Part shown: positions 43,101-57,153 of the stretch, in pieces
Position numbering within the stretch: the stretch's first letter is position 1
Layout of the letters: every line of letters begins with the position of its first letter
Virus record (IMG/VR): IMGVR_UViG_3300030107_001040
Span: 37,656 to 101,655 of that record
Length of the DNA: 64,000 nucleotides
DNA from: a virus
Direction: 5' to 3' (one strand)
Made by a program: the position numbers and the translations under genes
Notes under the pieces: generated by a model
Databases searched by the model: none
The model's input: only the letters and a program-made list of their open reading frames with translations
Told to the model about the DNA's origin: nothing

Positions 43101-46100
43101 TGCAGATACATTTAAGTTTGTTCTATTGAATGAACCAGAAGGTGCTGCTGATATTACACAAACATCTTATAGTACAAGTTCTGTTAAAGCAGTTGGTGCT
43201 ATATCAAATATTCGTATTGTTAATCCAGGTGGTTTTTACACTAAACTTCCTATTGTTACAGGTATTACCTCCACAAGGGTTATTGAAAGAGTTCAAATTG
43301 AAACACCAGGTACTGAATATGCTGTAGGAGAATACACTGGAGTTCCTATTGCAGGTGATGGCGAAGGTGGATTAGTTAGCATTACAGTTGCTGATGGAAC
43401 TGATGATGAGGGAACTGTAATTCCAGGTCAAATTAATAATGTTGTTGTTACTTCTCCAGGTAAAGGATATACTTCTGGAACAATTGATATTGAAGCTATA
43501 TCTGGTATATTAGGATCTGGATTAACTGGATCTGGTGCTGTATTGAATGTTATTATTCCTTCAAATGGAACAGAAGCATCTATCTTTACTCAGGGGACAA
43601 GCGTTGGAAAAATCAAGAAACTTAAGAATAATAACTTTGGATATGATTATCCTCATGACTATACTTTACGTCCTGAAATTACGTTCCCAATTAACGCACA
43701 ACTCACATCAACATCCATTCTAGACAGTATTACAATTACTGACCCAGGTTCTGGATATTCACAAGCACCTGCTGTTGTAATTACAGGTGGTGGTGGATCT
43801 GGTGCTCTAGCTGAGGCAACAATTAGGAACGGTAGATTAGATCAGGTGATTGTTAAGGATCCTGGTGCTGGATATTCATCTACACCAACTGTTTCCTTAA
43901 GATCTTCCTTTAACTATGTTATTAACATTGACTTAGGATTACTACAATTTGCCTTCCCTCATGGTATTGCAAATGGATCTGCTATAACATTAAATGTAGT
44001 TGATACTGGATCTGGTGCTGAATTCCCACTTGCTGCTGGTGCTACTGGTCGTCTTAACGGAACAACAACTTATTATGCTATTACTGGAACAGCAAATTCA
44101 TTAGAAAATGATCAATTAAAAGTAGCGATTACTGCTGCAAACGCTGAATTGGGTGATGCTTTAACATTCACCAATGCTGGAACAGGTCGTCAACAGGTAT
44201 TGACAGAATCATTTGGTGGTGGTGCTTCTGCTAATGTTATCACTTCTACCTTCTTAGAAGGAGAACTTGTTTATCAAGGTGATTCACTTGCTTCTGCAAC
44301 TGCAACTGGATACGTTTCAACTAATGAAGGTTGGCAAGTTGGACCTAGAGTTCTTAAGATTGTTGATTATACAGGAACATTTGCAGAGACTCAGAAATTA
44401 ACTGGTGTTATCTCTAAGTCTTCAGGTACTATTAGTGATCTAAACATCGCTAAAGGTGTTCTAGAAATTGGATCTATCACTAAGACTACTGGTCAATTCA
44501 TTGATGACGTTGGTAAACCTTCCGAAATTATTCAGAAGATTCAAGATAGTTACTATTATCAGGACTTCTCCTATGCTGTTAAGTCTGCTGTTTCTATTAG
44601 TGATTGGAAAGAGATTTTAATTAAGAACGTTCATCCTGCATCATTTAAGGTATTTGGTGAGTTGAACCTTTCAGATTATGGTTCAATTCCAAACAAAGAG
44701 ACTGATTTCCAACTTACAAAGTCTGTTGAACTTGCAAGAGAAGCAATTGTTCCCAATATACAGAGTTTTGCTCTAGTTGAACCAATTTACTCAGAATTTA
44801 ATAATACTGAAGTTCTGTTCCGTCAGAAGAGATTAACGTCTTCTGAGAACATTCTAACTTCTGTTGTACAAAGATTAGATGATATTTCTTCCTTATTTGA
44901 TGGTGAAAGAATATCATTCCCTCTACAAGTTAATCAAACTAACGTTGTTGCTAATGCCAATCAGTTAATGATTGTTTTGAATGGTGTTGTTCAAAACCCA
45001 GGAACATCATTCAGTATTCAAGGTGATTCTGTTGTATTCAGTGAACCACCTCAACCACCAGCAAGTGTTAAGTATGTAAACATAACAATTTCTCAACAAG
45101 CAACTAAGACTAACACATTTACTAATATTAGCGGTATCTTCCCTAGTGTTGGTAATGCTTTAGTTGGAACAGTTTCTGGTGCTAGATTAACCGTAACTTC
45201 TGTTGTTGGTAACGTAATTGATGGTTTCATTACAGAAGGAACCTTTATAATAGGTGAAAACGTAACTGTTGGTGCTACTGGATTTAATGCTAATATTGCG
45301 ACTCAAAGTGATGTTTCTAACATTGGATTGTTCCAGTACGGTGAGACAGTTACTAACTTAACTTCAGATACTGCAAAAGTTGAGCAAATCAACTTGGCAA
45401 CTGGTCAAGAAACACCTTTGGCACAACTTCGTTACACAATTGGTCCATCTACAACTGATTTTGAAGTTGTTGCATATAAGACAGATAATAGTGCTGCAGA
45501 TGCTGTAGTTCCTGTTGGAACATTCACTGCAACTAAGAAGTATCAGTTTGGATCTGAAATTTTCCTAGTTAACAGTATCACACAGGGTTCTGACTCTACA
45601 ACTTTAAATGTTACAAGAGCACAAGATGGAACTGCTGCTGTTTCTCAGCAAGAAGATCTTCCTGTTTATGGAACAGATATTAGTGTTACTACTGCTCTAA
45701 CATTAAGTAAGACTGCTGGTACTTACCAATCAACTCCTGGTTTATTTGATATTCAGTTAAATGATTATATTATCGGTGCTAAATCTGGGGTAGTAGCAAA
45801 AGTTACTGCTACTGCTGTATACACAGATCCTATTACTAATGAAGCAATTAGTCAGGTTAATATATCTGCAGGTTCATCCTTCTTTGGTCTATTATTCAAC
45901 AGAATTGCCTCTCAGACTTATCCAAACCAAGTCTTAGATGATATTTCTAAGTCTCAGGTAAGTATCGTTAAGTTTACTGATACTAATATTACTGATGGTC
46001 TTTCTAGCACAGCATTTAACGCAGAATTCCCTGCCAATGAAAGAATTAACAATTATGTAGTTCCATATGATAATGCAACTGGTGCATTTGCAGAAAACGA

Positions 46101-49100
46101 ATTCATACGTAACTATAAACTTGAATATGGTAATAACATTGGTGAGTTTACTGCTGGAGAAAGTGGAAAGGTAAGAAAACTAACTTATACACTCCCTCAA
46201 GGTGATGGATTCTTTAGTGCTGGACAAATTATAAGAACTCGTGATACTAAGGCAGAAGTTATAGGATATAACCAAGCACGTCAAACAGTTTATATTGGTA
46301 AGATAGGTAGAACTAAGGCTACTGGTGAAGATTATCATGCAGTTACATTTACTGGAAATGCTCAGTTAGATACTGCTCAGAAGAAATTTGGTACTGCATC
46401 ACTATTATGTGATGGCACAGGTGATTACACTAATATTGTTACATCTACAGAATTTGGACTTGCAACTGGTTCATTTACTATTGAAGCATATGTTCGTCCT
46501 GCTAACGTCTCTGGAACCAAAGTTATAATTGACTTTAGAACTGCAGCAACTGAAGTATCACCGATGCTTCAGATGAATAATGCTGCTTTAGAATTTTATG
46601 TTAATGGTTCAGTAGTTGCTAGTGGTGGAACTCTTGCTGCAAATACTTGGCATCATATTGCTGTTGTTAAGGGTGGCACAACCACGAAACTCTATGTAGA
46701 TGGAACTAAGGTTGGTTCTGATTATACCGATAACAATAACTATGGAGCTACTAAACCAATTAGAATCGGTGCTGATGTTGCTGGTGCAAATGGATTCAAT
46801 GGTCATGTTGATGAAGTAAGAGTATCAAATACTAACCGTTATACTGCTAACTTCACTCCTCTAGTTGGTATTCATCAAGGTGATTCAAATACTGTTCTAT
46901 TACTCCATTATGATGGTGCTGATGCTCAGACATGGGTTGAAGACTGGTCTGGTGGTGAGAGCTTTACAAATGGAGAATACTTCAATAATGATGCAATTCG
47001 TGCAACTCATCGTTCTTCTGCAAATGCTCCTAGTGGATATGTTAATAAAACAAACAGATATTATAATGCTGCAGATTTAATTGAGCTCAATAAAGAATTC
47101 CTTGCTCAAGAAGTAGTATTCATTCTTAAGAGAAGACATCCTCATCATACAATTAAGGGTAGTGAAGTTGATTGTGAAGATGATGTTCGTGATGTATTGA
47201 CTGCTATCATTTATGACCTCCGTAATGGTGGTAATAATAAGATTTGGGATGCATCTTCTTACTACATTGATAGAACAACTACTCCCGTTACACTGAAATT
47301 TGTCACTAACGAAGTTGATGAAGTTGTTTATACTTACGATAAATTAGAGCAAATAGTCAAGTATATCTTGACAAATACACCTTGGGAAGTTCAAGGTGAT
47401 CATGGTCTTAAACAGAAGTTTGACACTAGCATTACTGAGTCTGATGGTACTTCACCAACAGCATTGACACCAACAGCAGCAACATATAATGCTGTTACAG
47501 GTGATATGATCTTGACTGTTGCAAGTCATGGTTTGAATGCTGAAACACAAATTACTGCAACTAATGCTGCATATGTTGCTTCAACAGGTGTATTAACACT
47601 TACTAAGTCAGGTCATGGTCTTGCAAATGGCACAAGAATTAAGTTAGATCACAACTCTATTGTAATGAGTTGCACCTCTGATAGTAATACAGTTAATCAG
47701 AGTTATCCAAGACCTGATGATCCTGCTGCTCAAGGTTGGTTAGAAATTTCTAACGTCCAAACAAATACATTTGATATTAATGTTGGTAAGTCTCCAACAG
47801 TAAATTACACACCATCTGCAGGAACTTATAATGCAGAAACTGGTTTCTTGACAATGAATATTGGTAAGCATAACCTAAGAACTGGTCGTAAATATACTGC
47901 TTCTAATGCATCATATGATCCAGCTGGCGGTGTAATGACTATTACCATTGGTAATAATATTGATGTTGATAGTGCTGCCTATGATCCTGCTTCAGGTGAT
48001 TTGGTAATGACTATTGGTACTCATAACTTTGATATTGGTGATAAGGTTAAGATTGCTAAGAATTCATTGTTCTTTACATGTTCAATGGATGAACATCGTT
48101 CTGTTCATGCTTATCCAAGAGACGGTGATCCAGCATTCAATGCTGATCTTGAAATTACAGATACAACAGGAACTTCAATCACAGTTAATGTTGGAACAAC
48201 ACCTATCGTATCTTACACAGCAACAGGTGCAACTTATACTCCTGCAACTGGTGTTATGGAGCTTACTATTGGATCTCATAGCATTGCTGTTAATGATAGT
48301 ATAAGAATTGCAGATAATTCATTAACATTTACTTGTGCAGAAGATAGCGATCAAACAAGTCATACTTATCCTAGAGCAATTACAGATCCATTAGCTGCTC
48401 CAACTGGTGCTACCTATAATCCAAATACAGGTATCATGCAAATGACTATTAACAGTCATGGCATGTCAGGTCCAAGCACAACTACACCAACAGCAGCAAC
48501 TTATGATGCTGACACTGGTATTATGAGACTTACCAAGTCATCTCACGGATTTAAGGTCGGTGATATGGTTAAGTTAGATGACGGTGCAATTACCTTTAGT
48601 TGCACAATGGATTCCAATGCTACTAACCATGCTTATCCACGTGCTACAGACCCAATAAGCGGTCAATGGGTGGCAATCGTTGCTGCAGCTACAAACACAT
48701 TTGATATCCCTGTAGGTGCATCTGAACTTGGAGACTATACTCATACATTTGTTTCTGCTGTCACAAATGGTGTTAAGAAAGCAAATGATGTAATGAAGAT
48801 TGCTGATAATGGAATCTCATTCAAGTGTGCTGAAGATGGTAACAATAGCATTCACTCATATCCACGTCCTGGCGATCCTATGAGTGGTAAGTGGATGGTT
48901 ATTGAAGCTGCTGCTACAAATACAATAGATGTTCAAGTTTTAGATAGTGTTCCTTCAACTCATACATCAGTTCATACATTTAATAATGCTGTAACTGGTT
49001 CATTCCTTAAGAAGAGAGATCCATTCCAAGGAACTTCAATTCCAGTTACTGCTGTAACAGGAACAACAATTACTGTTAATGTTGGTATTTCTTCTAACAC

Positions 49101-52100
49101 AACTGCTCATACATGGACTGCAGCAGGAGTTAATGGAATCAGTTCTGGTGGTAACTACACTCATAAGTATGTTGATTCTGCTACTGGTGCAATTATTCCT
49201 AATCATGGATTCTATGTTGGTGATAGAGTAATGGTTGAGAAGGGTGCATTGGTATTCACATGTGCTCAAGATAGTCATGGTACTAGACATGCTTACCCAA
49301 GAATTACAGATCCATATTTCAATAAGTGGATCAAGATTATTAATGTAACAACCAATACATTTGGTATTAATGTTGGAGTTTCTTCTAACACAACTGCTCA
49401 TACATTCAAGTTCTGCACTCCTAATGGAATTGTAAGATCTGGTGAGACGATAAGGATGGCTAAAGATGCTATATCCTTCACATGTTCTCAGGATGGTTAT
49501 GCAACTGTTCACTCTTATCCTAGAGGTGATGATCCTGTTGCTAGTACTTCTATTCCAATCTACAACGATGGATCTGAGCATACAGCAACAACTGCTTCTT
49601 ATAATTCTTCTACAGGTGCAATGGTTATCACTGTTCCTGCACATGGATTTGCAGTTGATGATCAAATCAGAATTGAGAATAATTCTCTAACATTTGCTTG
49701 TAAGAAAGATAGTAATCAAACTCTTCATAGTTATCCTAGAGAGACTGATCCATATGTTCGTAGATGGCTCAGAATCAGTGCTGTAACTACAAATACATTT
49801 ACTGTTAATGTTGGTGCTGCTAATTCTACAGACGACAGATATGACCATACATTTGTATCTGCAACTCCGAAGGGAATAGTTAAGCGTGATAATACTATTA
49901 CAGTTAATGTTGGTCCAACACCTAATAAGAATTTCGTTCCAACAACAGGTGCTTATACTCCTGCATCTGGTGCATTAGAACTTACCATTGGTTCACATAG
50001 TTTACCTGCTCCTACAACTCACACAGTAACTGGTGCAGCATATGTGCCATCTACAGGTGTAATGACATTAACGCTTGCTGGTCATGGATTCTCTAATGGT
50101 GAACAAGTTAAGTTTGCTCAAGATGCATTAACATTTACTTGCACACATGGAGCAGGTAACCATACATATCCACGTGCTACTGACCCAATGCACAATAAGT
50201 GGATGCCAATTTCAAATGTAACAACTAATACATTTGATGTTCAGGTATTGGATGTTATTCCATCTAGTAACATAACAGTTCATACATTCGTTTCTGCTAC
50301 AACAAACGGTATGAGCAAGGCGAATTCAACAATTAGACTTGCTTCTGACTCATTACAAATGAGTTGCACATTTGGTGGTGGCGGTGCAGTTACTAAGACT
50401 TATCCAAGACATCAAGCTGCAACACATACAGCAGCCGCTGGAACTACTTACAACCCTAATACAGGTATTTTGAGTATTACTACAAGTTCTGCTCATGGAA
50501 TGGTTCCTGGTACACCAATTCAACTTCTTGACGATTCATTGACATTCAGTTGTGGATTTGGTGGCGGTGGTCAAGTTAATAAGACATATCCACGTTCAAC
50601 TGACCCAGTAAGTAATAGATGGTTATTCATTCAGAACGTAACTGCAACTACATTTGATGTTAAAGTTCTTGATAGTATTCCTTCTACTAACGTAGATGCT
50701 CATACATTTGTATCTGCTACATCTGCTGGTATTATTGAAGGCGATCCTATGATGGGACGTGCAATTCCTATTGAGGCTGTCACAGGTACTACAATCACTG
50801 TTAATGCTTTAAATGGTAAGGATGTAACCAATACTGATGCTCATACATGGGTTGGATTATCAACTTATCAGCATCAACCAACTGCAGCAACATATACACC
50901 AACTACAGGTGTATTAAGTCTTACTAAAGCAGCACATGGTTGGAGAGATGGTGATAAGGTTCAGATTGCTGATAACTCATTATCATTTAGATGTGCAATG
51001 GGTGATGATTCCTCATTACACACTTATCCACGTGCAACAGACCCTGTAAGTGGTAGATGGTTAACAATTTCTAATGTAACAACTAATACATATGATGTTA
51101 ATGTTGGAACTACACCAACATTGAATTTCACACCAACTGACGTTGATTATAATCCAGTAACAGGTAAGATGAAACTTACCATTGGTCATCATAATCTTGC
51201 TGTTGGTAATAGCGTTAAATTTGCAACAGAATCTTTAATATTCAAGTGTGCTCATGATTCTTATGCAACAAATCATTCATATCCAAGATCTACTATTTTA
51301 ACCCACACCGTAACTGACGGTGCTTATAATACTGGCACAGGTGTTATGACACTTACTGTTGCTGGTCATGGAATGGGTAATGGTGATTGGATTAAGATGG
51401 CAGATAATTCAATTACATTCAGTTGTGCTTTTGGTGGTGCTTCAGGTACTGCTGCTCAAAAATCTTATCCAAGATCTACTGACCCAATTAGCGGTAAGTG
51501 GGTTAAGATTTCTGGTGTAACTACAAACACATTCAATATCCAAGTTTTAGATACAGCACCTTCTACTAACACTGATGCTCACACATTTGTATCTGCAACT
51601 ACTGGTGGAGTTACACAGAAGAAGGATCGTTCTTACGATGCTCCTATTGAAATCCTTGAAGCTGATGAGTCATCTATTACAGTTCAGGTTCTTTCTACAA
51701 TTCCTTCATCTAATACTACAAATCACATCTTCGTTTCTTCTAGTGCAAATGCAGTAATTACTGGTGGTAACTATACACACGAATTTGTTAAAGCAACTTC
51801 TACTGCTGTTACAAGATCTATATGCAATAGTGGTGGTAATTATAATCACGTATTCTCATCTGGTGTTACTAATTCAATAAGCACTGGTGGTAACTACACT
51901 CATACATTTGTATCTGCAGGAACTAATGGTATTACAATTGCTGGTGATTCAGTTTATATTGATAAGGAAGCATTAACCTTTACTTGCACTAAGGATAATA
52001 ACGAGAAACAAGCTAAGTATCCTCGCACAACTGATCCTAAGTTCAAGCAAATTCTACCAATTATTAAGAAAGATACTAATACCTTTACTATTAATGTTGG

Positions 52101-55100
52101 TGCTGCTGCAGCAAAAGATCAGTATGCACATACGTTTATATCTGCAACAACAGGTGGTGTTAAGAAGTCTAATTACAGTAATACTGATTGTGCAGATGTT
52201 GTATCAACGTCAGCTAACCTAATTGATATTTTAACTGATACTTTAGAGAATGGCGCATTAGCAACTCCTGTTGATCATTTGGGAACAGTTACTAAGGTAA
52301 CACCTCCAACTAAGTTCCTTGGTGGACTTATTGACTCTTATATGGAGACTCCATTTGATCTTTCTTATCATAATGCATCTACAGATTTAGTTTACTCTAA
52401 TCAGATTGATCTTGATACACACTATCGTTATCGTGATGCTGCTAATCTAATTCGCAGAAATAGAGGTGCTATTGTAGATAAGGCAGCATATGATATGCTA
52501 CAACGTTATCCTGATCTTGCTCAGGATATGCCTAGAAATGCTGGTGGAACATCTACAGATGGTACTACTCGTTGTAAGCAAGACCTTGGATTAGTTGTAG
52601 ATGGTATAGCAAATGATTTAGAACATGGTGGTAACTTAGATACTATTACTGCTGCTAATTTCTACATTGGAACTGGTGGTGAACTACAACATATTCGTTT
52701 ACAAATTGCTCAGTCAGTTTATGTTCATGAGCGTTTAGCACTTTATCTAAAACAAGCAATAACTGGTGATCTAACAGATGATAATACAGATAATATCGTA
52801 GTTGGTGATTGGGGTATTACCAATGATGCTACTGGAACACAGTTTAGTGTAACTGGTGCAACATATGATCCAACTGGCGGTGATTTAGTATTAACTATTG
52901 GTTCACATACACTTCCTATTGGAAGAATGATAACAATTGCTGAGAATGGACTTACATTCTCATGTAACACTGGTAGTGGAGTTGTTAATAAGACATATCC
53001 AAGATCCTCTGGTGCAAGTACAACCAGTGGTGCAGACTATGCATACAACGCTAATCTTGCAATCACTGCAGTTACTGCAACTACAATTACTGTTAATGTT
53101 AACGGTGGACAAGGTGCTATTAGTAACCTTGCTGCTCATACATACGTTTCTTCTACTGCTAACTGCGTTTCAGTTCCTGGAAATTGTGCAAATGTTCAAA
53201 GTGCAATTGATACTTTAATTACAACAGTTAATGATATTATTGCTCCTACTGGTTCTGATTATGCAATCGGTGCTGATAGACTTCACTTTAACAGAAAGTA
53301 TATTGCTGAAGAAATCACTGGTCTTACATCAACATACTTCACTTATACATTAAATAACGTTTCTTACGTTGCTCTAACATATCCTAACGAAGTAACATGT
53401 CAGAGAGATATTAGATATGTTATTGAAGGAATTATTTCTGACTTACAAACAGGTGGTAATAATAGCACAATTGCTGCTATTGAGAAGTATATAACTGCTA
53501 CTTTACAACTTGATCATATTGAAGATCAGTTGTTAGGAACGATCTATGCTATGGAGCAAATCAAGCAGATGGGTGAGAAGGCACTTAACAATCTTCTTTA
53601 TGATAATGGTGCTACTGTAACAGGTCAACAATATGCTGCTATTCATACAGATGAAACTGCATACAGAGATGTATTAACTCCAACAAATATTAATGATGTA
53701 ATTTACGATTTCCGTGATCTTGTTGATGTTGTAGTTGAAATGCTTGCTCCTGCTGGTGTTGCTGGTAGAAGTGCTGGTAAGAACATTCTCTTTAACCAAA
53801 ACTACTATAAGCAAGAATTAAATTCACTTGTTAATGCTCAGTTTGGTGCTGGTGCTTGGACTACAGCATACAATACATTTGTTGATGAAATGGTTAATAA
53901 TGTCTGCCATGACATTGTTACTACCGATCTTTCTAAGACACAAGTTGGTTATACAATTAACGTTGAAGGTTCACTCGGAGAATTTGTTGTTGGTGAAACT
54001 GTAATCTCTAGTAATGGTGGTAAGGCAACTGTTCTTGAATGGGATGGTGAGCAAGAAATTCTATATGTTGATGATTTTGATGTTCATCATTGGGTTCCAA
54101 CAAATACTCTAACTGGTGTAGATTCTGATGCATGGGCTACTATCTCTGCTAATGGTGTAAGTTCTCCATATGATTGGTATACAACACCTACTAACGTTAA
54201 AGCAATTGCTAGTGCTAGATTAATAACCTCTAATGTTCAGGGTCAGATTGCTGGTACTAACATCTTCCCAAGTCCTGAAAACTTCAATGCTGCTGGTTGG
54301 ACAGATACAGGAATTACTAAGGTTCTTGATAATCTTACTTCTCCTGATACTACTTTAACTGCAGATAAGTTAGTTTGTAGTGCTGTTGCTGGAGAGCATT
54401 TTACTTATAAGAACTTTACTATTAGTGCTTATGATACATTTGATGATGGAACTATTAAGTGGGATACTACAGGTCAGAAATTTGACGAAGGTGCTACTGG
54501 AACACAAGAATCTCAGCAATATACATTCTCTGTATTCTTGAAGAAAGGAGAATTTAGTAGAGTTCGTCTTCAGTTTGGTCTTGATACTGGTGGAGCAGCT
54601 GAGCAATTAGCATTCTTTGATCTTAATACTACTGATGGAACTGTCGGATCTATCTTCACTCCTGGAAATGGAGTTACTGTTGATGCCTTTGGTGCAATTC
54701 CTTATGGTGATGGATGGTATAGAGGATACATTACTTGCACATTCTCCTTCGGTTTTGCTCAGATCCGCACACAAATCTTTGTAAGAAATGCTACTGGACA
54801 GGCAAGTTTCACTGGAGATGGAAGTTCTGGTGTATATGGATGGGGTCTAAAACTCTTTAAGGGTGTTCTTGATCCTTATCAATCTGCTTCTGGTAAGTTA
54901 TTCTATGCTGATACAGAATACAACATTAAGAATTACACATTAGATCAGTTACAGACATATATGTCTAGAGCTCTTAATGGGTCTAATCAGTCACCTTCTC
55001 CTAGTGCAACATTCTATGAGTACTATGATGCTACTGCTGCTGGAGATTATGAGTATGTTTCAATTGAAAGATTGGTCAGAAATAACTTGAATATTATCCG

Positions 55101-57153
55101 TAATCAGTTAGACAGTTCTGCTTACTACGCAACTATAAGTTTAAATAATGCAATTTCTATTCCTACTAAGAAGTATGGAACTAGAACTATACCTGTTGGT
55201 TTAGGTGGCGGATTAAGAAATGCTGATCATATTTACGGAATACAAAGTGACGCACATGCTGAACTAGAAAGAGTTACAGAAAATTCAGGTAAGGTAGTAC
55301 AAGTTTACCAGAGATTCCGTATTGATGGTGATATCACTGATGGTCCTTACACTATGGGTGAAGTTGTTAAGAAACAAGGTAATTCTTCTATTACTGGTGT
55401 TGTATACGGTTTCTATTCAGATGATAATTACAAGTATCTTGATGTTAAGGTAACCGCAGGTCCATGGGCGATTACTGATAACGTTGTAGGTGATGAAAAC
55501 TCAACAACTGCTCAGATTAGTGCTATTGAAAATAGACTTCATATTATTGATCTTAAGGGTGAATTTACTAATGATATTCCATTCAAAGGATATACAAGCA
55601 CTAAGACAGCAACTCCAACAGGATTCCTGAAGAACGAAGCTGCTGTTACTGCTAATACAGGTGGAACACTTACAGTTGATACTGAAAGTTTAACAGGAAC
55701 ATTTGAAAGAACTGCAGTTGTTTATCCAGAATCTTCTAGAATATATCTGGATGTAAGTAAGATTGCTGGTCTTGATATTAAGGTTGGTGATACAGTTAAA
55801 TCTACTGGATATGTAAGATACGGTATTAGTATTCTTAACAGTCTGAATGTATTTGTAGAGGGTAATAGACTCTATAAGGTTGTTGGTGGTATCCAACAGA
55901 CAGGTACATACGCAGTTATTACTGAAGTTGATGTAGCAAATAACTTCATCTATATAACTCCAGTCGCAGGAACGATTGTTGCAACTGATATAGTTGGTGA
56001 TTATGGAAGTGGATTATCATTCCCACAAGGATATGCAACCGTAACTACTGTCACAACTACTGCAGGTGCAGGTGCTGGATTAGTTCAAGATATTCGTGAT
56101 ATTGCTCTTAATAAGAGAATATATCTCACAAATGTCGCAGGATCATTTGATGCTAAGGATTCCATTAAAGGTCCAAACTCTTACAAGGGAGCAATCGTTG
56201 GACAGGCAGATCTTAAGGGACGTGTTAAGAGAGCATTCAAGGGATTTGATGGAACAACAACTACATTCCCATTAACGATTAGTAATGGAACATCATATCT
56301 ACCTGATCCCGCAGGTCATATGTTGATATTCCTTAATGGTATTCTACAACCTCCAGGTGGAACTAACGCATATACAGCGTTCTCTAACCAGATTCAGTTT
56401 ACTGAAGCACCAGATCTAGGTGCATCCTTCACAGGATTCTACGTAGGTAAAATGAGACAGTTAGATGATATATCATTTGAATTTGACTCTTTACGTCAAT
56501 CATTCAACCTTAAGCGTAATGATGTATTCTACTCACTAACGCTTACGGATGGTGTTCAATCTTCTGTCATCAGACCTGAAAATAATATTATTGTTTCACT
56601 CAATGGTGTTATACAGGAACCAGGCGTTGGTTTTGAATTGGTTGGTTCTAGAATAATCTTCTCTGAGATTCCTCGTGTAGGATCAACATTCGTTGCATTC
56701 TCATATGTTGGTTCTGAGGCAGACGTTGACGCTGCTGAAGTGGTACCACCAATTGAACCTGGTGACTTCATAGATATACAAGGTGAAACTGCAGATAGAG
56801 AAGTTGCTGTTATTGAATCTTCCAACTCTCTAATTACATACGACTATCTTGGATCCGTCTTCGGTAAGGATGGTGCTGGAACTGCAATAGTTCAAAAAGG
56901 ATTTATTAGAGATGTTCAGATCACATCAGGTGGTTCTGGATATACTTCTAGACCTACAGTTAGACTTGATTCTATCTCTGGTTTTGAAGGTAATGTTAAA
57001 GCACTGGTTGGTGTTGCTAGTGTTGAGATGAGTGCTGCTGGAACTGGATATCAGGATCCAACCATTGCAGTTGAAACTTCTGTTCCTGATGATTGGACTG
57101 CTCCTGACTTAAGTCAATACGGCGAAGAGTTAGTAGATCCAGAAACACCATAA
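34168..57153 (+). CDS. gp7: Giant baseplate wedge initiator gp7-like structural protein (7661 aa)
   Basis: Located after gp6 and upstream of gp8. gp7-like segments 'Q.PDFI..DYPLF..FLEYYY', 'IK.IKDFY.SKGT..S..YLFKLLYGE' and 'IQDSYYYQDFSY.VKS...W......VHPA.FKVFG'. Also YHYH-like, two LamG-like and many repeat domains. Confidence 0.8.
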   Translation: MTNINKVSQAVVSQTPDFIEQDYPLFNKFLEYYYLSQEKTGMGQNILNNFLGYLDIDKLDIGILDGATKVVEDITATSDTIIVESVDKFLDTNGTILIGDEVVYYETVTAAPDIALSPGISYDQVKLKWINLASPLLSFDGTTRTFPLTSQDNPIAAPSAQHLIVSNYGKVLIPGTDYAVSGTNIVFTTAPRARVPSDDSSSTYITYLNGFNENTIVALDNLSNGFGEQKRQFTITKSGTRYEPVVDEYVLAVYDNRLLVPKVDFFIDGDQFIFLTAPLNGRYLSLYAIEAPIPSFGSGAVGYARISDTGTLSNISVNTNGTKYRFAYPPKVSINSATGSGASATSLVNGIKSVTLLDGGAGYSATNPPTVQIQTPTATGSTAATLKATVGTDGAVSSLEVTNSGSGYTFTPRITFKQPGGAKLGTPTITSGKITGTVPITDGGQGYTTIPTVYVDEPTGTNPVRAALTATLTNGVVTGITIANAGSGYTETPRIAIIDPVGAQILETKVDSDGRVIDIDLLSGGSGYTDIPSVYIVDNRTDATGAYAGGTGAKATASIFNGKITDINVSTFGTGYSQTSPPDVVIQSPPAAEASATTGLNEITGFTINQAGTGYTKASFNKCARAASGITSYTEDGNAVFTNMTTAAAHVTNDNIKCLDQLFVKRLLDKYTEQYLPDVPTLDYKTIDVRTAIKTIKDFYGSKGTSYSIGYLFKLLYGEQVSISYPKDQIIKPSDATWSIDTILRATLVSGDPENIRDGLLTQDADIADTNVKAASALVENYISIKTSKLEIYELVLSEETIAGTFIVPYKTKLAEPLDKTASIITVDSTIGWPERNGEFLIGSSTDTAELIQYKEKSLNQFIECTRSVNSVVEDWDSATEVKSNFKVYVNKGTAQEVVMNIVGIVDAQQTTLTDTGSYYLPGDKLTVSKLGGTGTSPELTTWLYNVKKLISVSTITYGGVNDQSATVTCANNHGLLVGDQVTIYGANPIIYNGTFLVTSRDSATVFQYNLPQPATVIPQGNILVSIDLNKGKSENAAVLNAIGPYTTNIQNSFFNDTYVYVASTGIPNYNIGPFPGSALLPGNQRKLTRFPISPTTISTKNNIAAGPIGTWVNGVSVWSYKSTLSKTFGAVTSIDITNAGSGYDAAYPPKITISDGGGSGATASVVVNGSVSEITVSTGGSGYTSSPLVSIVGGGGSGAAATAIITKGVVSRVLINSGGSGYTSQPSITIVGGGGTGATATASVRGPIKSIGVDTGGNSYTSNPSVTLSSGSGAVAQPVISNGRIISIAIISAGSGYTTAPEIDIQGAGFGAVARATIDLDGENAGRVTGITIVNRGIGYVQGTTVINLNSIGLGAVFSPNVFKWTYNLQATATLDSAKGGVFEGFNNQYGGEYGHISNPQRLRYILGDSLQEQTAGTITEQESQITHSPIIGWAFDGNPIYGPYGYSDPTDQTSTINRLLTSYRLKTALVYNATTNPLPVREAGPLLTSEAAGNFVEDYEYVFGLGGLDQYNGRFCKTPEYPNGRYCYFVTIDATEAGNPVFPYVIGPSFNSVVDAWNLSTSAIQQNIPTGVVRYRDPYENVDIDVDRAPNVSTNALTTEAGDILLFEIEDEDRSGVIDQAETDDPDQMFEESPLQLFDYFPTVTFDSKVDIEVETITKFEDASVTGFTVENSGKNYQVNDRLIFDNTDTDGTGVSARISRIKGETVASYNFENVGGTNYGVLKTSTPHNLSVGDSVFLTYTPIMNNTNKTFVVRQLKGIEEIVVNTTGSGYSSDIPPVITIDSTSGSAGSLEAVVTTVGSIETVNILNSGSGYTSNPRVILSHPQIFKKADYYVSKIENQDYVKVNDAVVNTKKEVFICGKTLDATGNTVGFVAKLSATGVKEWQKTLESTDGQTYTEFQKLYVEGNDVWAVGNNKPNAALLAAYNPDVILAKYTQATNGLSATLTFQKAYAGISGSTRSDNVTAITKYSDTRFVIGGYTNTNSANPYDAYIALIDTTGNFALKRKVASTSSSEKITGLIVKGSNIYFSLEIAATQAATAVDVGFGKATVGTTAITVDYVKNYSNTLYSFLDSSCAIDEFDEVYLTATLRLKSNNTTKDSFWVGKVDLTGDLIWNYRYLISAGTITAASKSEIDLFGDLNVIINKSATSNGEKTVETLKIGYNGLLKEHSTNVFNVNNIEGITAYGMAIDESADVHVFGQTSWNRNEFVYDFAGNEQTDVTGHYTLTSTSTTNSITYADNVAKILGYNPAGSNSTWINSHLKVTGTQLKTKLSGDWTLEFQIYKDSTTSQTLSQTGQTLCAIGGAQDATGGLWLGYDISSGKLQFAVTNSSTALNTATPIESTQTTMYYNNSWQFVAITKIGTAFKVYVNGVEVISGTQSSTQLENKDLYFGQQVGWGSGAADFNQNKQGQFYIDNIRLRNKGVTPTVPTDVTGVPPSNNTFGFAFDWVDDAWFTTHLNKYDYIDYVGWGIKIDKNADAVRVGTFTERTNTKLGFIRANVSPVVGSTLTMASTGLGLAEAGFQSLDFDDATTTMSQDTETLTYTQDIWSSRTATVPSPGSQKLSVSAVVKDRYYFKVTNTVKIDNVQKLTLNQSFTFTNNAKLQLYDGSTFINSGYIIKQDADNKQVYLAINNNAWSNDLNTGTLSTVQFSEQSTYGIVGPIPNDINEITSYSFAQINNTTPGTFDIDLNDFNHPEGGSNNMDELSKFKPYADADYSIRIDEVAGGSAYIVGSVITIASGNISFNAAYTTAQITGLTGVLKITLVANLTKVLQVSAVANSDEVYVITGTSHYLKKGEMIFVDGNPSQQVGATTYDEYDGSFPVDTVVSPLEFTYKLNSIAVTDPATTAANVSIFVKSPVLKMYYGHQYLFDLSHSSLVGGNLSFAKDNLYKLEYSFNSIERVGTPGVTGQGITTPTVKLKVDENVVTNISYYFDPSRTTDADSPVISGSYLDVTDSPYKGTFTISSISGATITTGADTFKFVLLNEPEGAADITQTSYSTSSVKAVGAISNIRIVNPGGFYTKLPIVTGITSTRVIERVQIETPGTEYAVGEYTGVPIAGDGEGGLVSITVADGTDDEGTVIPGQINNVVVTSPGKGYTSGTIDIEAISGILGSGLTGSGAVLNVIIPSNGTEASIFTQGTSVGKIKKLKNNNFGYDYPHDYTLRPEITFPINAQLTSTSILDSITITDPGSGYSQAPAVVITGGGGSGALAEATIRNGRLDQVIVKDPGAGYSSTPTVSLRSSFNYVINIDLGLLQFAFPHGIANGSAITLNVVDTGSGAEFPLAAGATGRLNGTTTYYAITGTANSLENDQLKVAITAANAELGDALTFTNAGTGRQQVLTESFGGGASANVITSTFLEGELVYQGDSLASATATGYVSTNEGWQVGPRVLKIVDYTGTFAETQKLTGVISKSSGTISDLNIAKGVLEIGSITKTTGQFIDDVGKPSEIIQKIQDSYYYQDFSYAVKSAVSISDWKEILIKNVHPASFKVFGELNLSDYGSIPNKETDFQLTKSVELAREAIVPNIQSFALVEPIYSEFNNTEVLFRQKRLTSSENILTSVVQRLDDISSLFDGERISFPLQVNQTNVVANANQLMIVLNGVVQNPGTSFSIQGDSVVFSEPPQPPASVKYVNITISQQATKTNTFTNISGIFPSVGNALVGTVSGARLTVTSVVGNVIDGFITEGTFIIGENVTVGATGFNANIATQSDVSNIGLFQYGETVTNLTSDTAKVEQINLATGQETPLAQLRYTIGPSTTDFEVVAYKTDNSAADAVVPVGTFTATKKYQFGSEIFLVNSITQGSDSTTLNVTRAQDGTAAVSQQEDLPVYGTDISVTTALTLSKTAGTYQSTPGLFDIQLNDYIIGAKSGVVAKVTATAVYTDPITNEAISQVNISAGSSFFGLLFNRIASQTYPNQVLDDISKSQVSIVKFTDTNITDGLSSTAFNAEFPANERINNYVVPYDNATGAFAENEFIRNYKLEYGNNIGEFTAGESGKVRKLTYTLPQGDGFFSAGQIIRTRDTKAEVIGYNQARQTVYIGKIGRTKATGEDYHAVTFTGNAQLDTAQKKFGTASLLCDGTGDYTNIVTSTEFGLATGSFTIEAYVRPANVSGTKVIIDFRTAATEVSPMLQMNNAALEFYVNGSVVASGGTLAANTWHHIAVVKGGTTTKLYVDGTKVGSDYTDNNNYGATKPIRIGADVAGANGFNGHVDEVRVSNTNRYTANFTPLVGIHQGDSNTVLLLHYDGADAQTWVEDWSGGESFTNGEYFNNDAIRATHRSSANAPSGYVNKTNRYYNAADLIELNKEFLAQEVVFILKRRHPHHTIKGSEVDCEDDVRDVLTAIIYDLRNGGNNKIWDASSYYIDRTTTPVTLKFVTNEVDEVVYTYDKLEQIVKYILTNTPWEVQGDHGLKQKFDTSITESDGTSPTALTPTAATYNAVTGDMILTVASHGLNAETQITATNAAYVASTGVLTLTKSGHGLANGTRIKLDHNSIVMSCTSDSNTVNQSYPRPDDPAAQGWLEISNVQTNTFDINVGKSPTVNYTPSAGTYNAETGFLTMNIGKHNLRTGRKYTASNASYDPAGGVMTITIGNNIDVDSAAYDPASGDLVMTIGTHNFDIGDKVKIAKNSLFFTCSMDEHRSVHAYPRDGDPAFNADLEITDTTGTSITVNVGTTPIVSYTATGATYTPATGVMELTIGSHSIAVNDSIRIADNSLTFTCAEDSDQTSHTYPRAITDPLAAPTGATYNPNTGIMQMTINSHGMSGPSTTTPTAATYDADTGIMRLTKSSHGFKVGDMVKLDDGAITFSCTMDSNATNHAYPRATDPISGQWVAIVAAATNTFDIPVGASELGDYTHTFVSAVTNGVKKANDVMKIADNGISFKCAEDGNNSIHSYPRPGDPMSGKWMVIEAAATNTIDVQVLDSVPSTHTSVHTFNNAVTGSFLKKRDPFQGTSIPVTAVTGTTITVNVGISSNTTAHTWTAAGVNGISSGGNYTHKYVDSATGAIIPNHGFYVGDRVMVEKGALVFTCAQDSHGTRHAYPRITDPYFNKWIKIINVTTNTFGINVGVSSNTTAHTFKFCTPNGIVRSGETIRMAKDAISFTCSQDGYATVHSYPRGDDPVASTSIPIYNDGSEHTATTASYNSSTGAMVITVPAHGFAVDDQIRIENNSLTFACKKDSNQTLHSYPRETDPYVRRWLRISAVTTNTFTVNVGAANSTDDRYDHTFVSATPKGIVKRDNTITVNVGPTPNKNFVPTTGAYTPASGALELTIGSHSLPAPTTHTVTGAAYVPSTGVMTLTLAGHGFSNGEQVKFAQDALTFTCTHGAGNHTYPRATDPMHNKWMPISNVTTNTFDVQVLDVIPSSNITVHTFVSATTNGMSKANSTIRLASDSLQMSCTFGGGGAVTKTYPRHQAATHTAAAGTTYNPNTGILSITTSSAHGMVPGTPIQLLDDSLTFSCGFGGGGQVNKTYPRSTDPVSNRWLFIQNVTATTFDVKVLDSIPSTNVDAHTFVSATSAGIIEGDPMMGRAIPIEAVTGTTITVNALNGKDVTNTDAHTWVGLSTYQHQPTAATYTPTTGVLSLTKAAHGWRDGDKVQIADNSLSFRCAMGDDSSLHTYPRATDPVSGRWLTISNVTTNTYDVNVGTTPTLNFTPTDVDYNPVTGKMKLTIGHHNLAVGNSVKFATESLIFKCAHDSYATNHSYPRSTILTHTVTDGAYNTGTGVMTLTVAGHGMGNGDWIKMADNSITFSCAFGGASGTAAQKSYPRSTDPISGKWVKISGVTTNTFNIQVLDTAPSTNTDAHTFVSATTGGVTQKKDRSYDAPIEILEADESSITVQVLSTIPSSNTTNHIFVSSSANAVITGGNYTHEFVKATSTAVTRSICNSGGNYNHVFSSGVTNSISTGGNYTHTFVSAGTNGITIAGDSVYIDKEALTFTCTKDNNEKQAKYPRTTDPKFKQILPIIKKDTNTFTINVGAAAAKDQYAHTFISATTGGVKKSNYSNTDCADVVSTSANLIDILTDTLENGALATPVDHLGTVTKVTPPTKFLGGLIDSYMETPFDLSYHNASTDLVYSNQIDLDTHYRYRDAANLIRRNRGAIVDKAAYDMLQRYPDLAQDMPRNAGGTSTDGTTRCKQDLGLVVDGIANDLEHGGNLDTITAANFYIGTGGELQHIRLQIAQSVYVHERLALYLKQAITGDLTDDNTDNIVVGDWGITNDATGTQFSVTGATYDPTGGDLVLTIGSHTLPIGRMITIAENGLTFSCNTGSGVVNKTYPRSSGASTTSGADYAYNANLAITAVTATTITVNVNGGQGAISNLAAHTYVSSTANCVSVPGNCANVQSAIDTLITTVNDIIAPTGSDYAIGADRLHFNRKYIAEEITGLTSTYFTYTLNNVSYVALTYPNEVTCQRDIRYVIEGIISDLQTGGNNSTIAAIEKYITATLQLDHIEDQLLGTIYAMEQIKQMGEKALNNLLYDNGATVTGQQYAAIHTDETAYRDVLTPTNINDVIYDFRDLVDVVVEMLAPAGVAGRSAGKNILFNQNYYKQELNSLVNAQFGAGAWTTAYNTFVDEMVNNVCHDIVTTDLSKTQVGYTINVEGSLGEFVVGETVISSNGGKATVLEWDGEQEILYVDDFDVHHWVPTNTLTGVDSDAWATISANGVSSPYDWYTTPTNVKAIASARLITSNVQGQIAGTNIFPSPENFNAAGWTDTGITKVLDNLTSPDTTLTADKLVCSAVAGEHFTYKNFTISAYDTFDDGTIKWDTTGQKFDEGATGTQESQQYTFSVFLKKGEFSRVRLQFGLDTGGAAEQLAFFDLNTTDGTVGSIFTPGNGVTVDAFGAIPYGDGWYRGYITCTFSFGFAQIRTQIFVRNATGQASFTGDGSSGVYGWGLKLFKGVLDPYQSASGKLFYADTEYNIKNYTLDQLQTYMSRALNGSNQSPSPSATFYEYYDATAAGDYEYVSIERLVRNNLNIIRNQLDSSAYYATISLNNAISIPTKKYGTRTIPVGLGGGLRNADHIYGIQSDAHAELERVTENSGKVVQVYQRFRIDGDITDGPYTMGEVVKKQGNSSITGVVYGFYSDDNYKYLDVKVTAGPWAITDNVVGDENSTTAQISAIENRLHIIDLKGEFTNDIPFKGYTSTKTATPTGFLKNEAAVTANTGGTLTVDTESLTGTFERTAVVYPESSRIYLDVSKIAGLDIKVGDTVKSTGYVRYGISILNSLNVFVEGNRLYKVVGGIQQTGTYAVITEVDVANNFIYITPVAGTIVATDIVGDYGSGLSFPQGYATVTTVTTTAGAGAGLVQDIRDIALNKRIYLTNVAGSFDAKDSIKGPNSYKGAIVGQADLKGRVKRAFKGFDGTTTTFPLTISNGTSYLPDPAGHMLIFLNGILQPPGGTNAYTAFSNQIQFTEAPDLGASFTGFYVGKMRQLDDISFEFDSLRQSFNLKRNDVFYSLTLTDGVQSSVIRPENNIIVSLNGVIQEPGVGFELVGSRIIFSEIPRVGSTFVAFSYVGSEADVDAAEVVPPIEPGDFIDIQGETADREVAVIESSNSLITYDYLGSVFGKDGAGTAIVQKGFIRDVQITSGGSGYTSRPTVRLDSISGFEGNVKALVGVASVEMSAAGTGYQDPTIAVETSVPDDWTAPDLSQYGEELVDPETP
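47452..52170 (+). repeat. 15 nested copies of a ~100-aa domain within gp7
   Basis: Recurring segments 'A.Y.P.TG.M.LT...H', 'FTC......H.YPR', 'DP....W..I..VT.NTF.VNV' and 'HTFVSA'. Confidence 0.85.

What the first reader, a model, noticed from the sequence alone, without database searches (positions are those of the whole stretch)
47452..52170. Recursive 'Russian-doll' protein: 15 copies of one domain nested inside each other to depth 8
Seen: the unit has four ordered segments, A 'A.Y.P.TG.M.LT...H', B 'GD.I.I...SL.FTC......H.YPR', C 'DP....W..I..VT.NTF.VNV' and D 'HTFVSA..NG'. The copies are not tandem; by eye they parse with fully balanced brackets: A1[A2B2C2[A3[A4[A5B5C5[A6B6[A7[A8B8C8D8]B7C7D7]C6D6]D5]B4C4D4]B3C3a[9]C3b[A10[11]B10[12]C10D10[A13B13C13[A14B14[15]C14D14]D13]]D3]D2]B1C1D1. 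Copy 1 opens at about 47452 and finishes only at 51943-52170. Three closing 'GGNY.H.F' segments stack at 51763-51942. Copies 3 and 10 each host three children in different loops. Insertion points recur (after A, after YPR, after VNVG), and all four insertions after C close with GGNY. Inference: the folded product is a branched tree rather than a rod, a multivalent host-capture structure grown by repeated in-frame self-insertion. The invariant Cys and the conserved His residues may bind metal. I know of no described example of this depth.
Basis: partly seen in the sequence, partly recalled or inferred. Interest (0 to 1): 0.9.

Follow-up and report, generated by a model that had tools for sequence, protein, structure and literature searches.

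The report
Self-nested beta-barrel tree in cyanophage baseplate
A 7,661-residue baseplate protein of a marine cyanobacterial virus carries 15 copies of one small beta-barrel domain inserted into each other's loops, eight levels deep. That is deeper than the six-level record in a 2026 survey, and related phages differ only by whole extra domains.

Summary
Window 47467-52164 lies in one 7,661-aa ORF (34168-57153, +). This ORF is the giant protein at the gp7 position of a T4-like Prochlorococcus-type cyanophage baseplate module.

Residues 4434-5999 are tiled, with no residue left over, by 28 pieces of a ~105-aa unit. The pieces parse as 15 units nested 8 deep. None of 2,000,000 block shuffles parses.

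Three orthologs differ from this protein only by indels of 92-118 aa or multiples of that. Each indel is a whole unit, or several, sitting in a loop of another unit. Split pieces are conserved almost as well as contiguous copies (58% against 63% identity).

The unit is an FCCH-like beta-barrel (UBA1 FCCH, Z 7.5-8.0) with a near-invariant His-Cys-His triad spread over segments A, B and D.

AlphaFold2 models two depth-2 nests with high confidence (pLDDT 93, pTM 0.81 for subtree 10-12). It leaves three deeper closing pieces unplaced. I could not read coordinates, so full 3D closure remains inferred. Host capture and metal binding are untested.

The kind of architecture is known: cyanobacterial RNA polymerase Si3 is a six-level nest. 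I found no paper describing it in a phage. This scan has already noted the same architecture in at least 9 other cyanophage genomes.

The parts
34168..57153 (+). Giant ORF, 7,661 aa, at the gp7 position of the baseplate module
   Evidence: Matches phrog_701 over its length and Pfam Baseplate_wedge PF23786 at 36.3 bits. Flanked by gp25-, gp6-, gp9- and gp8-like genes.
47467..47550 (+). Copy 1, segment A (aa 4434-4461); opens the outermost unit
47551..47805 (+). Copy 2, segments ABC (aa 4462-4546)
47806..47892 (+). Copy 3, segment A (aa 4547-4575)
47893..47964 (+). Copy 4, segment A (aa 4576-4599)
   Evidence: Not placed by AlphaFold2.
47965..48213 (+). Copy 5, segments ABC (aa 4600-4682)
48214..48393 (+). 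Copy 6, segments AB (aa 4683-4742)
48394..48477 (+). Copy 7, segment A (aa 4743-4770)
   Evidence: pLDDT 88-91.
48478..48771 (+). Copy 8, contiguous ABCD (aa 4771-4868); innermost, level 8
   Evidence: VIA match to UBA1 FCCH 4p22_B: Z 8.0, rmsd 2.6, 78 aligned.
48772..49014 (+). Copy 7, segments BCD (aa 4869-4949)
49015..49146 (+). Copy 6, segments CD (aa 4950-4993)
   Evidence: Not placed by AlphaFold2; only ~12 alignment rows cover these columns.
49147..49206 (+). Copy 5, closing D that starts with GGNY (aa 4994-5013)
   Evidence: Not placed by AlphaFold2.
49207..49434 (+). Copy 4, segments BCD (aa 5014-5089)
   Evidence: 70% identical to the BCD part of the contiguous copy in P-SSM3.
49435..49572 (+). 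Copy 3, segment B plus the first strand of C (aa 5090-5135)
49573..49887 (+). Copy 9, contiguous ABCD (aa 5136-5240), in the hairpin turn of C3
49888..49935 (+). Copy 3, second strand of C (aa 5241-5256)
49936..50016 (+). Copy 10, segment A (aa 5257-5283)
   Evidence: pLDDT 90-97.
50017..50322 (+). Copy 11, contiguous ABCD (aa 5284-5385)
50323..50424 (+). Copy 10, segment B (aa 5386-5419)
50425..50739 (+). Copy 12, contiguous ABCD (aa 5420-5524)
50740..50856 (+). Copy 10, segments CD (aa 5525-5563)
50857..51126 (+). Copy 13, segments ABC (aa 5564-5653)
51127..51300 (+). Copy 14, segments AB (aa 5654-5711)
51301..51624 (+). Copy 15, contiguous ABCD (aa 5712-5819); absent from P-SSM3
51625..51762 (+). 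Copy 14, segments CD (aa 5820-5865)
51763..51831 (+). Copy 13, closing D that starts with GGNY (aa 5866-5888)
51832..51885 (+). Copy 3, closing D that starts with GGNY (aa 5889-5906)
51886..51939 (+). Copy 2, closing D that starts with GGNY (aa 5907-5924)
51940..52164 (+). Copy 1, segments BCD (aa 5925-5999); closes the outermost unit 1,463 residues after its A
52840..53175 (+). Copy 16, a single contiguous ABCD unit (aa 6225-6336)
47020..47466 (+). Helical host module H1, N-terminal part (aa 4285-4433); the 15-copy tree is inserted after it
   Evidence: H1, H2 and H3 are pairwise related (BLAST E 1e-10 to 1e-12), and the alignment runs across the junction.
52165..52422 (+). Helical host module H1, C-terminal part (aa 6000-6085)
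52423..53292 (+). Helical host module H2 (aa 6086-6224 and 6337-6375), carrying copy 16 at the site that matches the tree's site in H1
   Evidence: Weak hit to Pfam PF00502, E 0.0036.
53293..53847 (+). Helical module H3 (aa 6376-6560), with no insertion

Best explanation
Residues 4434-5999 of the giant gp7-position baseplate protein are 15 copies of one ~105-aa beta-barrel domain. The fold is FCCH-like, with a conserved His-Cys-His triad. The copies grew by repeated in-frame insertion of whole copies, or whole sub-nests, into surface loops of existing copies.

Four insertion sites are used here: the A-B loop, the B-C loop after YPR, the hairpin turn inside C, and the C-D loop. The chain leaves each host barrel unfinished, builds the inner barrels, and finishes the hosts in reverse order on the way back. 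The result is a rooted, branched tree: 1>2>3, then 3 carries 4>5>6>7>8, 9, 10 (with 11 and 12) and 13>14>15.

The whole tree sits in one loop of a helical module that is itself repeated three times.

Shown here:
- the nested order of the pieces;
- its conservation and its growth by whole-unit indels among orthologs;
- the barrel fold of the contiguous copies.

Inferred:
- every split copy closes into a barrel, folding from the inside out, possibly clasped by a metal held by the His (A), Cys (B) and His (D);
- the tree is a surface-exposed, multivalent binding array at the edge of the baseplate, whose rapid gain and loss of units serves host adaptation.
For: Order and statistics:
- Partial profile hits reproduce the nested order.
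- The tiling is gap-free.
- The parse is perfect at depth 8, and no token falls elsewhere in the 7,661 aa.
- 0 of 2,000,000 shuffles parse.
- Rejoined copies align at full length with the invariant residues kept.

Ortholog comparison:
- Against P-SSM3, the only large gaps are 416 aa (167 + 249; subtree 5-8 inside copy 4, which is contiguous in P-SSM3), 108 aa and 110 aa (copy 15).
- P0346 and P0345 contain all 15 copies in the same order. They add only 114, 118, 113, 211, 224 and 92 aa, each at a loop of a unit.
- Split pieces are 58% identical to P-SSM3 and contiguous copies 63%.
- The pieces that AlphaFold2 did not place (A4, C6D6, D5) are 43-65% identical in P0346 and P0345.

Structure prediction:
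- AlphaFold2 on subtree 10-12 gave mean pLDDT 93.1 and pTM 0.81, with split pieces at 87-97.
- In subtree 4-8, A7 and B7C7D7 scored 88-96.
- One VIA row spans model residues 166-377, the limits of split copy 7, with 83 residues aligned to a 93-residue contiguous barrel (8qq5_A, Z 5.3, rmsd 3.2).
- Contiguous copies match barrels that are themselves inserted domains. The matches are UBA1 FCCH (Z 7.5-8.0) and the phi92 endosialidase barrel (Z 7.1-7.7).

Conservation: H22 98%, C41 99% and H90 100% in 326 copies.

Family-wide: the same nests occur across the family, for example P0225, P0454 and P0445.
Against: - I had no access to coordinates or PAE, so contacts between the pieces of a split copy were not seen.
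- AlphaFold2 left A4, C6D6 and D5 below pLDDT 50 in the depth-5 model (pTM 0.54). Thin alignment explains C6D6 (~12 rows) but not D5 or A4 (48-60 rows).
- Partial barrels (A5B5C5, A6B6, B4C4D4) still scored 82-96. High pLDDT therefore does not prove closure.
- No VIA row covered split copy 10.
- Pairing of A with CD by sequence similarity is not significant when only the split copies are permuted (556 of 5,040).
- In the known analogue, Si3, recursively inserted domains sometimes swap strands (PMC11515920).
- Function has no direct evidence.
Confidence: 0.75

Rival explanations
1. The nest is real in sequence and origin, but the fold is partly interdigitated. Some outer A hairpins or closing D strands complete a neighbouring barrel (strand or domain swap), as reported for parts of RNA polymerase Si3. 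The product would then be a fused multi-barrel body rather than a clean tree of separate barrels.
For: [quoted passage not shown]
- AlphaFold2 did not place A4, C6D6 or D5.
- Three or four closing D strands follow each other with only ~7-residue spacers.
- BFVD models of relatives superpose per barrel (rmsd 1.7-2.5 over ~106 columns) but not globally (TMq 0.3-0.48).
Against: - Every inner copy keeps canonical, contiguous A-B, B-C and C-D junctions.
- pTM is 0.81 for subtree 10-12.
- Orthologs gain or lose whole units without any change in the flanking pieces.
Confidence: 0.17
2. Only the contiguous inner copies fold. The split outer pieces are decayed remnants that now serve as linkers.
For: The outermost piece in the model (A4) and two closing pieces had pLDDT below 50.
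Against: - Split pieces keep the invariant Y, G, C, YPR, D and H.
- They are 58% identical to P-SSM3, against 63% for contiguous copies.
- All pieces are retained in the same order in P0346 and P0345.
- Counts stay exactly balanced at 15 each of A, B, C and D.
Confidence: 0.05
3. A, B, C and D are independent small modules of a linear rod or fibre that can occur in any order. The bracket order is accidental.
For: None beyond the fact that phage fibre proteins often have short repeats.
Against: - 0 of 2,000,000 shuffles parse.
- Segment counts are equal.
- Indels among orthologs are whole ABCD units.
- The contiguous ABCD unit folds as one barrel.
Confidence: 0.02

Closest known systems
Si3 insertion of cyanobacterial RNA polymerase beta' (RpoC2): recursively inserted hybrid-motif (SBHM/HABAS) domains
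   Same: Copies of one small beta domain are inserted into loops of other copies, recursively and with branching. The whole array sits in a loop of an unrelated host domain. The 2026 ECOD survey reports 8-10 domains in a 6-level nest as its most complex case (PMC13114784). PMC11515920 describes the same architecture.
   Different: The protein differs (virion baseplate, not polymerase). The domain differs: an FCCH-like barrel with His-Cys-His, and no RNA polymerase chain appears in the top 50 VIA rows. There are more copies (15 against 8-10) and more levels (8, or 9 with the helical host). Turnover is rapid: orthologs differ by whole units.
FCCH domain of ubiquitin-activating enzyme E1 (Pfam PF16190; 4p22_B, 9mc4_A, 2v31)
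   Same: It is the best structural match of the contiguous copies (Z 7.5-8.0, rmsd 2.6-2.9, 77-78 aligned, 17-21% identity). It is the nearest named cluster in the ESM Atlas, at 0.92. Homolog P0152 reaches the Pfam cut-off. By established knowledge of E1 architecture, FCCH is itself an inserted domain, so its termini lie close together.
   Different: The six contiguous copies here give no PF16190 hit at E <= 10. Z of 7-8 is only middling. The copies carry a His-Cys-His triad and a YPR motif. There is no link to ubiquitin chemistry.
Beta-barrel domain of phage endosialidases (phi92, 4hiz_A residues 255-340)
   Same: It is a phage receptor-binding enzyme with a barrel of the same fold (Z 7.1-7.7, rmsd 2.4-2.5, 76-83 aligned). 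From my own knowledge of endoNF, that barrel is inserted into the propeller and binds sialic acid. A cyanophage protein annotated as endosialidase also matches the model in BFVD.
   Different: It is a single copy, not nested. Identity is 17-21%. Glycan binding by the cyanophage barrel is not tested.
T4 gp7 baseplate wedge protein
   Same: The gene lies between gp6-like and gp9/gp8-like genes. Pfam Baseplate_wedge (PF23786) hits at 36.3 bits. P-SSM4 annotates the ortholog as gp7.
   Different: The cyanophage protein is 7,661 aa and carries large added modules, among them the nested tree. T4 gp7 has no such region as far as I know.

Membership tests
Recursive homotypic domain insertion (Si3-type architecture) | A domain is split in sequence by a complete domain of the same family | tested here: met
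   The profile coordinates of the partial hits are complementary around full hits. Rejoined copies align at full length. An ortholog has the same copy uninterrupted.
Recursive homotypic domain insertion (Si3-type architecture) | The inserted domain is itself a host, over several levels | tested here: met
   The stack parse gives 16 of 16 units closed, depth 8 and 0 errors. 0 of 2,000,000 shuffles parse.
Recursive homotypic domain insertion (Si3-type architecture) | The split pieces reassemble into one folded domain in 3D | tested here: inconclusive
   AlphaFold2 is confident for the nests 10[11][12] and 7[8]. One VIA row spans split copy 7. However, A4, C6D6 and D5 were not placed, and no coordinates or PAE were available to me.
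SBHM/HABAS fold (the domain of Si3) | The unit has the sandwich-barrel hybrid fold | tested here: inconclusive
   The top 50 VIA rows for both models hold FCCH, FNR-like and phage barrels and no RNA polymerase chain. Absence from the list does not exclude the fold.
Pfam E1_FCCH (PF16190) | Sequence match to the family profile at the gathering score | tested here: not met
   The six contiguous copies give no hit at E <= 10. Homolog P0152 sums to 30.6 bits against a cut-off of 29.5, and P0183 to 27.2.
Pfam E1_FCCH (PF16190) | Same fold as solved FCCH domains | tested here: met
   4p22_B: Z 7.5 and 8.0, rmsd 2.9 and 2.6, 77-78 aligned. 9mc4_A: Z 7.5 and 7.9. These Z values are middling by the tool's own note.
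T4-type baseplate wedge gp7 / phrog_701 | Profile match and conserved position in the baseplate gene order | tested here: met
   phrog_701 matches over most of the length, and PF23786 scores 36.3 bits against a cut-off of 27. Neighbours are gp25-, gp6-, gp9- and gp8-like. The order is the same in P-SSM3 and P-SSM4.
Metal-binding His/Cys site | Conserved ligands lie close together in the fold and a metal is bound | not testable with these tools
   H22 98%, C41 99% and H90 100% in 326 copies. Copy 4 here lacks H22.

The most novel reading that the evidence does not exclude
This is the deepest and most branched self-nested protein architecture so far documented: 8 barrel levels, 9 with the helical host. 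Every barrel closes, from the inside out, around a His-Cys-His metal clasp that ties pieces lying up to 1,463 residues apart. Cyanophages add or remove whole barrels in loops as a routine way to reshape a host-contacting array on the baseplate.
Probability: 0.45. Interest if true: 0.85.

Novelty: new variant of a known kind. Interest (0 to 1): 0.75.

Why it matters
Domain-in-domain insertion is usually one level deep. A 2026 survey of 2.7 million domains gives six levels as its extreme. Here a virus particle protein reaches eight levels with 15 copies.

Related phages show the steps of growth as clean gains and losses of whole domains. This gives three things:
- a natural map of where this barrel tolerates insertions;
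- a test case for how a chain folds when a domain's first hairpin must wait about 1,460 residues for its remaining strands;
- a possible new mode of host-range evolution in abundant ocean viruses.

It also defines an unannotated domain family. There are 718 representative proteins at E <= 0.001, and 294 cyanophage records carry it.

Tried and rejected
I had prepared a test of A1 (aa 4425-4461) against B1C1D1 (aa 5925-6001) with alignments A4 and A5; it could not be run.
- The search for related loci gave only 2 loci with the subtree as query.
- PDB searches by sequence found nothing significant. The weak hit to 8bke (E 0.061) is the Klebsiella phage KP34 depolymerase, and I set it aside as chance.
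- Foldseek against PDB gave no match at E <= 0.001.
- Mean-field DCA on 326 copies (Meff 205) gave couplings dominated by gap and subfamily columns and no clear strand ladder. I did not use it.
- The Mantel test of A against C or D similarity is positive over all 16 copies (r 0.30-0.33, p < 0.01). It is not significant when only the split copies are permuted (556 of 5,040; 6 of 24 for D). I therefore do not count it as evidence for pairing.
- I briefly read the tail of D5 as a duplicated remnant of A4. It matches the ordinary D tail equally well, so I dropped the idea (sequence).
- VIA listed no row on split copy 10. BFVD hits showed no shared global arrangement.
- The segment HMMs, trained on this protein, miss short D pieces in distant relatives. 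Only 3 of 118 giant homologs parse without error. I give no family-wide depth statistics.

Full report
**Context**

The finding lies inside a single open reading frame, window 34168-57153 on the + strand, 7,661 aa. The frame matches PHROG 701 (virion structural protein) along its length and Pfam Baseplate_wedge PF23786. It also matches YHYH and two Laminin_G_3 domains.

Its neighbours are gp25-, gp6-, gp9- and gp8-like baseplate genes. The same order is annotated in Prochlorococcus phages P-SSM3 and P-SSM4, where the 7,312-aa ortholog is labelled gp7. The window is therefore part of a T4-like cyanomyovirus. G+C is about 37-38%. The identical protein is on record as P0344, unnamed.

**Checking the observation**

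I built a profile only from the six stretches where the unit is contiguous (copies 8, 9, 11, 12, 15, 16). I then searched the whole protein with it.

All significant hits fall between residues 4434 and 6335. The non-contiguous stretches match as partial hits whose profile coordinates are complementary. Examples are 3-32, then 2-83, 2-30, 2-21, 4-82, 2-60, 3-26, a full hit, 27-100, 48-102 and so on.

My tiling leaves no unassigned residue between 4434 and 5999. Four segment HMMs produce a token string that a stack parser closes completely:

[A[ABC[A[A[ABC[AB[A[ABCD]BCD]CD]D]BCD]BC[ABCD]c[A[ABCD]B[ABCD]CD][ABC[AB[ABCD]CD]D]D]D]BCD][ABCD]

That is 16 units, 0 errors, depth 8, and no token anywhere else in the protein. 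These HMMs were trained on the same copies, so for this protein they restate the tiling.

None of 2,000,000 shuffles of the 28 blocks parses. None of 2,000,000 shuffles of the 23 partial blocks parses.

When the pieces of each split copy are joined, all 16 copies align at normal length (~100-110 aa). They share the invariant Tyr and Gly in A, Cys and YPR in B, Asp in C and His in D.

GGNY occurs four times only. Each occurrence starts the closing D of a copy whose C-D loop holds an insertion.

Copy 13 is a sibling of copy 10 in the C-D loop of copy 3, not a child of copy 10. So copy 10 hosts two children, and copy 3 hosts four children in three loops.

**Evidence from relatives**

A tblastn search with one unit finds it in 294 cyanophage records. 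A full HMMER scan of 1.84 billion representatives finds 718 proteins at E <= 0.001. There are 484 giant homologs at E <= 1e-20.

*P-SSM3.* A global alignment of the region with P-SSM3 gp7 has only three large gaps:
- 416 aa present only here (reported as 167 + 249 aa);
- 108 aa present only in P-SSM3;
- 110 aa present only here.

Reading the sequences shows what these are. P-SSM3 has a contiguous copy reading ...MTITIANH|GFYVGDRVMF... At that position this phage has A4, then the four-copy subtree 5-8, then B4C4D4. P-SSM3's contiguous ortholog of copy 14 lacks copy 15. P-SSM3 also carries an extra unit in the A-B loop of its ortholog of copy 13.

*P0346 and P0345.* Two metagenomic orthologs, P0346 (7,891 aa) and P0345 (5,687 aa), contain every one of the 15 copies in the same order. 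All pieces align in full at 36-83% identity. They differ only by extra stretches of 114 and 118 aa (P0346) and 113, 211, 224 and 92 aa (P0345). Each extra stretch lies in a loop of an existing unit.

So every indel of 30 aa or more in three comparisons is about one, two or four units long.

Split pieces are 58% identical to P-SSM3 over 705 positions. Contiguous copies are 63% identical over 310 positions. This argues against the split copies being decaying remnants.

*The wider family.* Other family members show the same grammar. P0225 has six tandem repeats of a four-deep nest. P0454 and P0445 parse perfectly at depth 7. My profiles miss short D pieces in distant relatives, so I give no family-wide statistics.

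*Age.* DNA identity among the copies here is only 60-80%, so the duplications are old. The C2-A3 junction is 72% identical over 140 nt to the C13-A14 junction. Whole sub-nests have therefore been copied as units.

**The host of the tree**

The three helical modules are pairwise related (BLAST E 1e-10 to 1e-12). The alignment runs across the junction. The tree and copy 16 occupy the same loop, while the third module is uninterrupted. The nest therefore has one more level if the host module is counted.

One module gives a weak Phycobilisome (PF00502) hit: E 0.0036, 17.7 bits, below the cut-off. Several giant homologs carry precomputed PF00502 hits. I did not pursue this.

**Fold**

AlphaFold2 on subtree 10-12 (307 aa, 87-row alignment) gave mean pLDDT 93.1 and pTM 0.81. 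No residue fell below 50, and the three pieces of split copy 10 scored 87-97.

VIA-align against 48,161 PDB chains matched the two contiguous copies to small six-stranded barrels:
- UBA1 FCCH (4p22_B): Z 7.5, rmsd 2.9, 77 aligned;
- phi92 endosialidase residues 255-340: Z 7.1;
- a phage FCWL1 neck protein: Z 7.2;
- phage N4 tail: Z 6.5;
- many FNR-type FAD-binding barrels: Z 5-6.

The second model repeated this for copy 8 (4p22_B Z 8.0; 4hiz_A Z 7.7).

The ESM Atlas independently gives an E1_FCCH cluster of viral proteins as the nearest named neighbour, at 0.92. One homolog reaches the PF16190 cut-off. The copies here give no PF16190 hit at E <= 10.

FCCH and the endosialidase barrel are themselves inserted domains in their proteins (established knowledge). 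That fits a fold whose two ends lie close together.

**Limits of the structural test**

I could not read coordinates or PAE.

The depth-5 model (subtree 4-8, 514 aa) had mean pLDDT 81.3 and pTM 0.54. A5B5C5, A6B6, A7, copy 8, B7C7D7 and B4C4D4 scored 82-97. A4, C6D6 and D5 were below 50.

The alignment has only ~12 rows over C6D6, against 60-80 elsewhere. D5 and A4 had 48-60 rows. Partial barrels scored high without their missing strands, so pLDDT alone does not prove closure.

One VIA row (8qq5_A, Z 5.3, rmsd 3.2, 83 aligned to a 93-residue barrel) spans model residues 166-377. Those are exactly the limits of split copy 7. This is suggestive only. No row covered split copy 10.

Three-dimensional closure is therefore supported for two depth-2 nests by confidence values. 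It is unresolved for the deeper closings.

**Conserved residues**

In 326 contiguous copies from phages and metagenomes, His22 (segment A) is 98% conserved. Cys41 (B) is 99%, His90 (D) 100%, Pro53 100%, Gly13 99% and Tyr8 96% conserved.

The three possible ligands lie on three different segments. In a split copy they are far apart in sequence, up to about 1,500 residues in copy 1. All 16 copies here keep Cys and the D His. Copy 4 lacks the A His. A metal clasp is a reasonable idea, but I could not test it.

**Mechanism and function**

The most likely history is repeated in-frame insertion of a whole unit, or a whole sub-nest, into a loop of an existing unit. These insertions were retained because the inserted barrel's ends meet and the host barrel can still close.

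Folding would then run from the inside out. The contiguous copies 8, 9, 11, 12 and 15 fold first and bring their hosts' pieces together. This is inference.

For function I commit, at under even odds, to a surface-exposed multivalent binding array at the periphery of the baseplate. The grounds are:
- the position in a wedge protein that also carries lectin-type Laminin_G_3 domains;
- the fold match to the endosialidase barrel;
- the fast turnover of units between related phages.

A purely structural role is the alternative.

**Comparison with the literature**

Recursive insertion of one small beta domain is described for the Si3 region of cyanobacterial RNA polymerase beta'. A 2026 survey of 2.7 million ECOD domains calls its 8-10 domains in a six-level nest its most complex case (PMC13114784). 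PMC11515920 adds that such domains sometimes swap strands.

I found no paper describing this architecture in a phage protein. The library is limited to open-access papers and bioRxiv.

Earlier agents of this scan reported the same architecture in at least 9 other cyanophage genomes and named the same analogue. I had reached Si3 independently.

**Verdict**

Self-insertion is strongly supported by comparison with orthologs. Full closure of the tree, metal binding and host capture remain inferences.

This is a new variant of a known kind of architecture. It is deeper and more branched than the published record, and it occurs in an unannotated domain family of abundant marine viruses.

Noticed in passing
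window 47020-47466, 52165-53292, 53293-53847 (aa 4285-4433, 6000-6375, 6376-6560): The host of the tree is a helical module repeated three times. Each copy keeps a Cys-x-x-Asp ... Asp-Leu-x-x-Gly-Gly-Asn motif. One copy gives a weak Phycobilisome (PF00502) hit at E 0.0036, below the cut-off. Several giant homologs carry precomputed PF00502 hits.
   Followed up: partly
window about 35150-35950, 37400-37950 and 56900-57100 (aa ~330-600, ~1080-1260, ~7580-7640): A short motif around G-S-G-Y-T followed by P-x-V/I-x-I recurs many times in the N-terminal part and again at the C terminus of the giant protein. It is seen in the translation only. It looks like a separate tandem repeat family.
   Followed up: no
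P0225 (4,764 aa, metagenome), aa 279-4062: Six near-tandem repeats of a four-deep nest, [ABC[ABC[ABC[ABCD]cD]D]D]. Whole nests are therefore duplicated as modules.
   Followed up: partly
P0345 aa 3813-3904, against window aa 5764/5765 (copy 15, between the Cys and YPR of segment B): A 92-aa extra stretch in an ortholog sits inside segment B. This would be a fifth insertion site, one not used in this window.
   Followed up: no
window 47737-47876 and 51058-51197: The C2-to-A3 junction and the C13-to-A14 junction are 72% identical over 140 nt. A parent-child junction was therefore copied as one piece.
   Followed up: partly
window 38263-38778 and 40951-41433 (aa 1366-1537, 2262-2422) and about 46414-46833: The same giant protein carries a YHYH domain (PF14240, E 4e-31) and two Laminin_G_3 lectin-type domains (E 1e-7 and 4e-23).
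   Followed up: no
P0176 and about 30 similar complete proteins of ~748 aa; P0186 and similar of ~640 aa: Smaller complete cyanophage proteins also contain nested copies of the unit, for example [A[ABC[ABCD][ABCD]D]BC... They might be easier targets for structure work.
   Followed up: no
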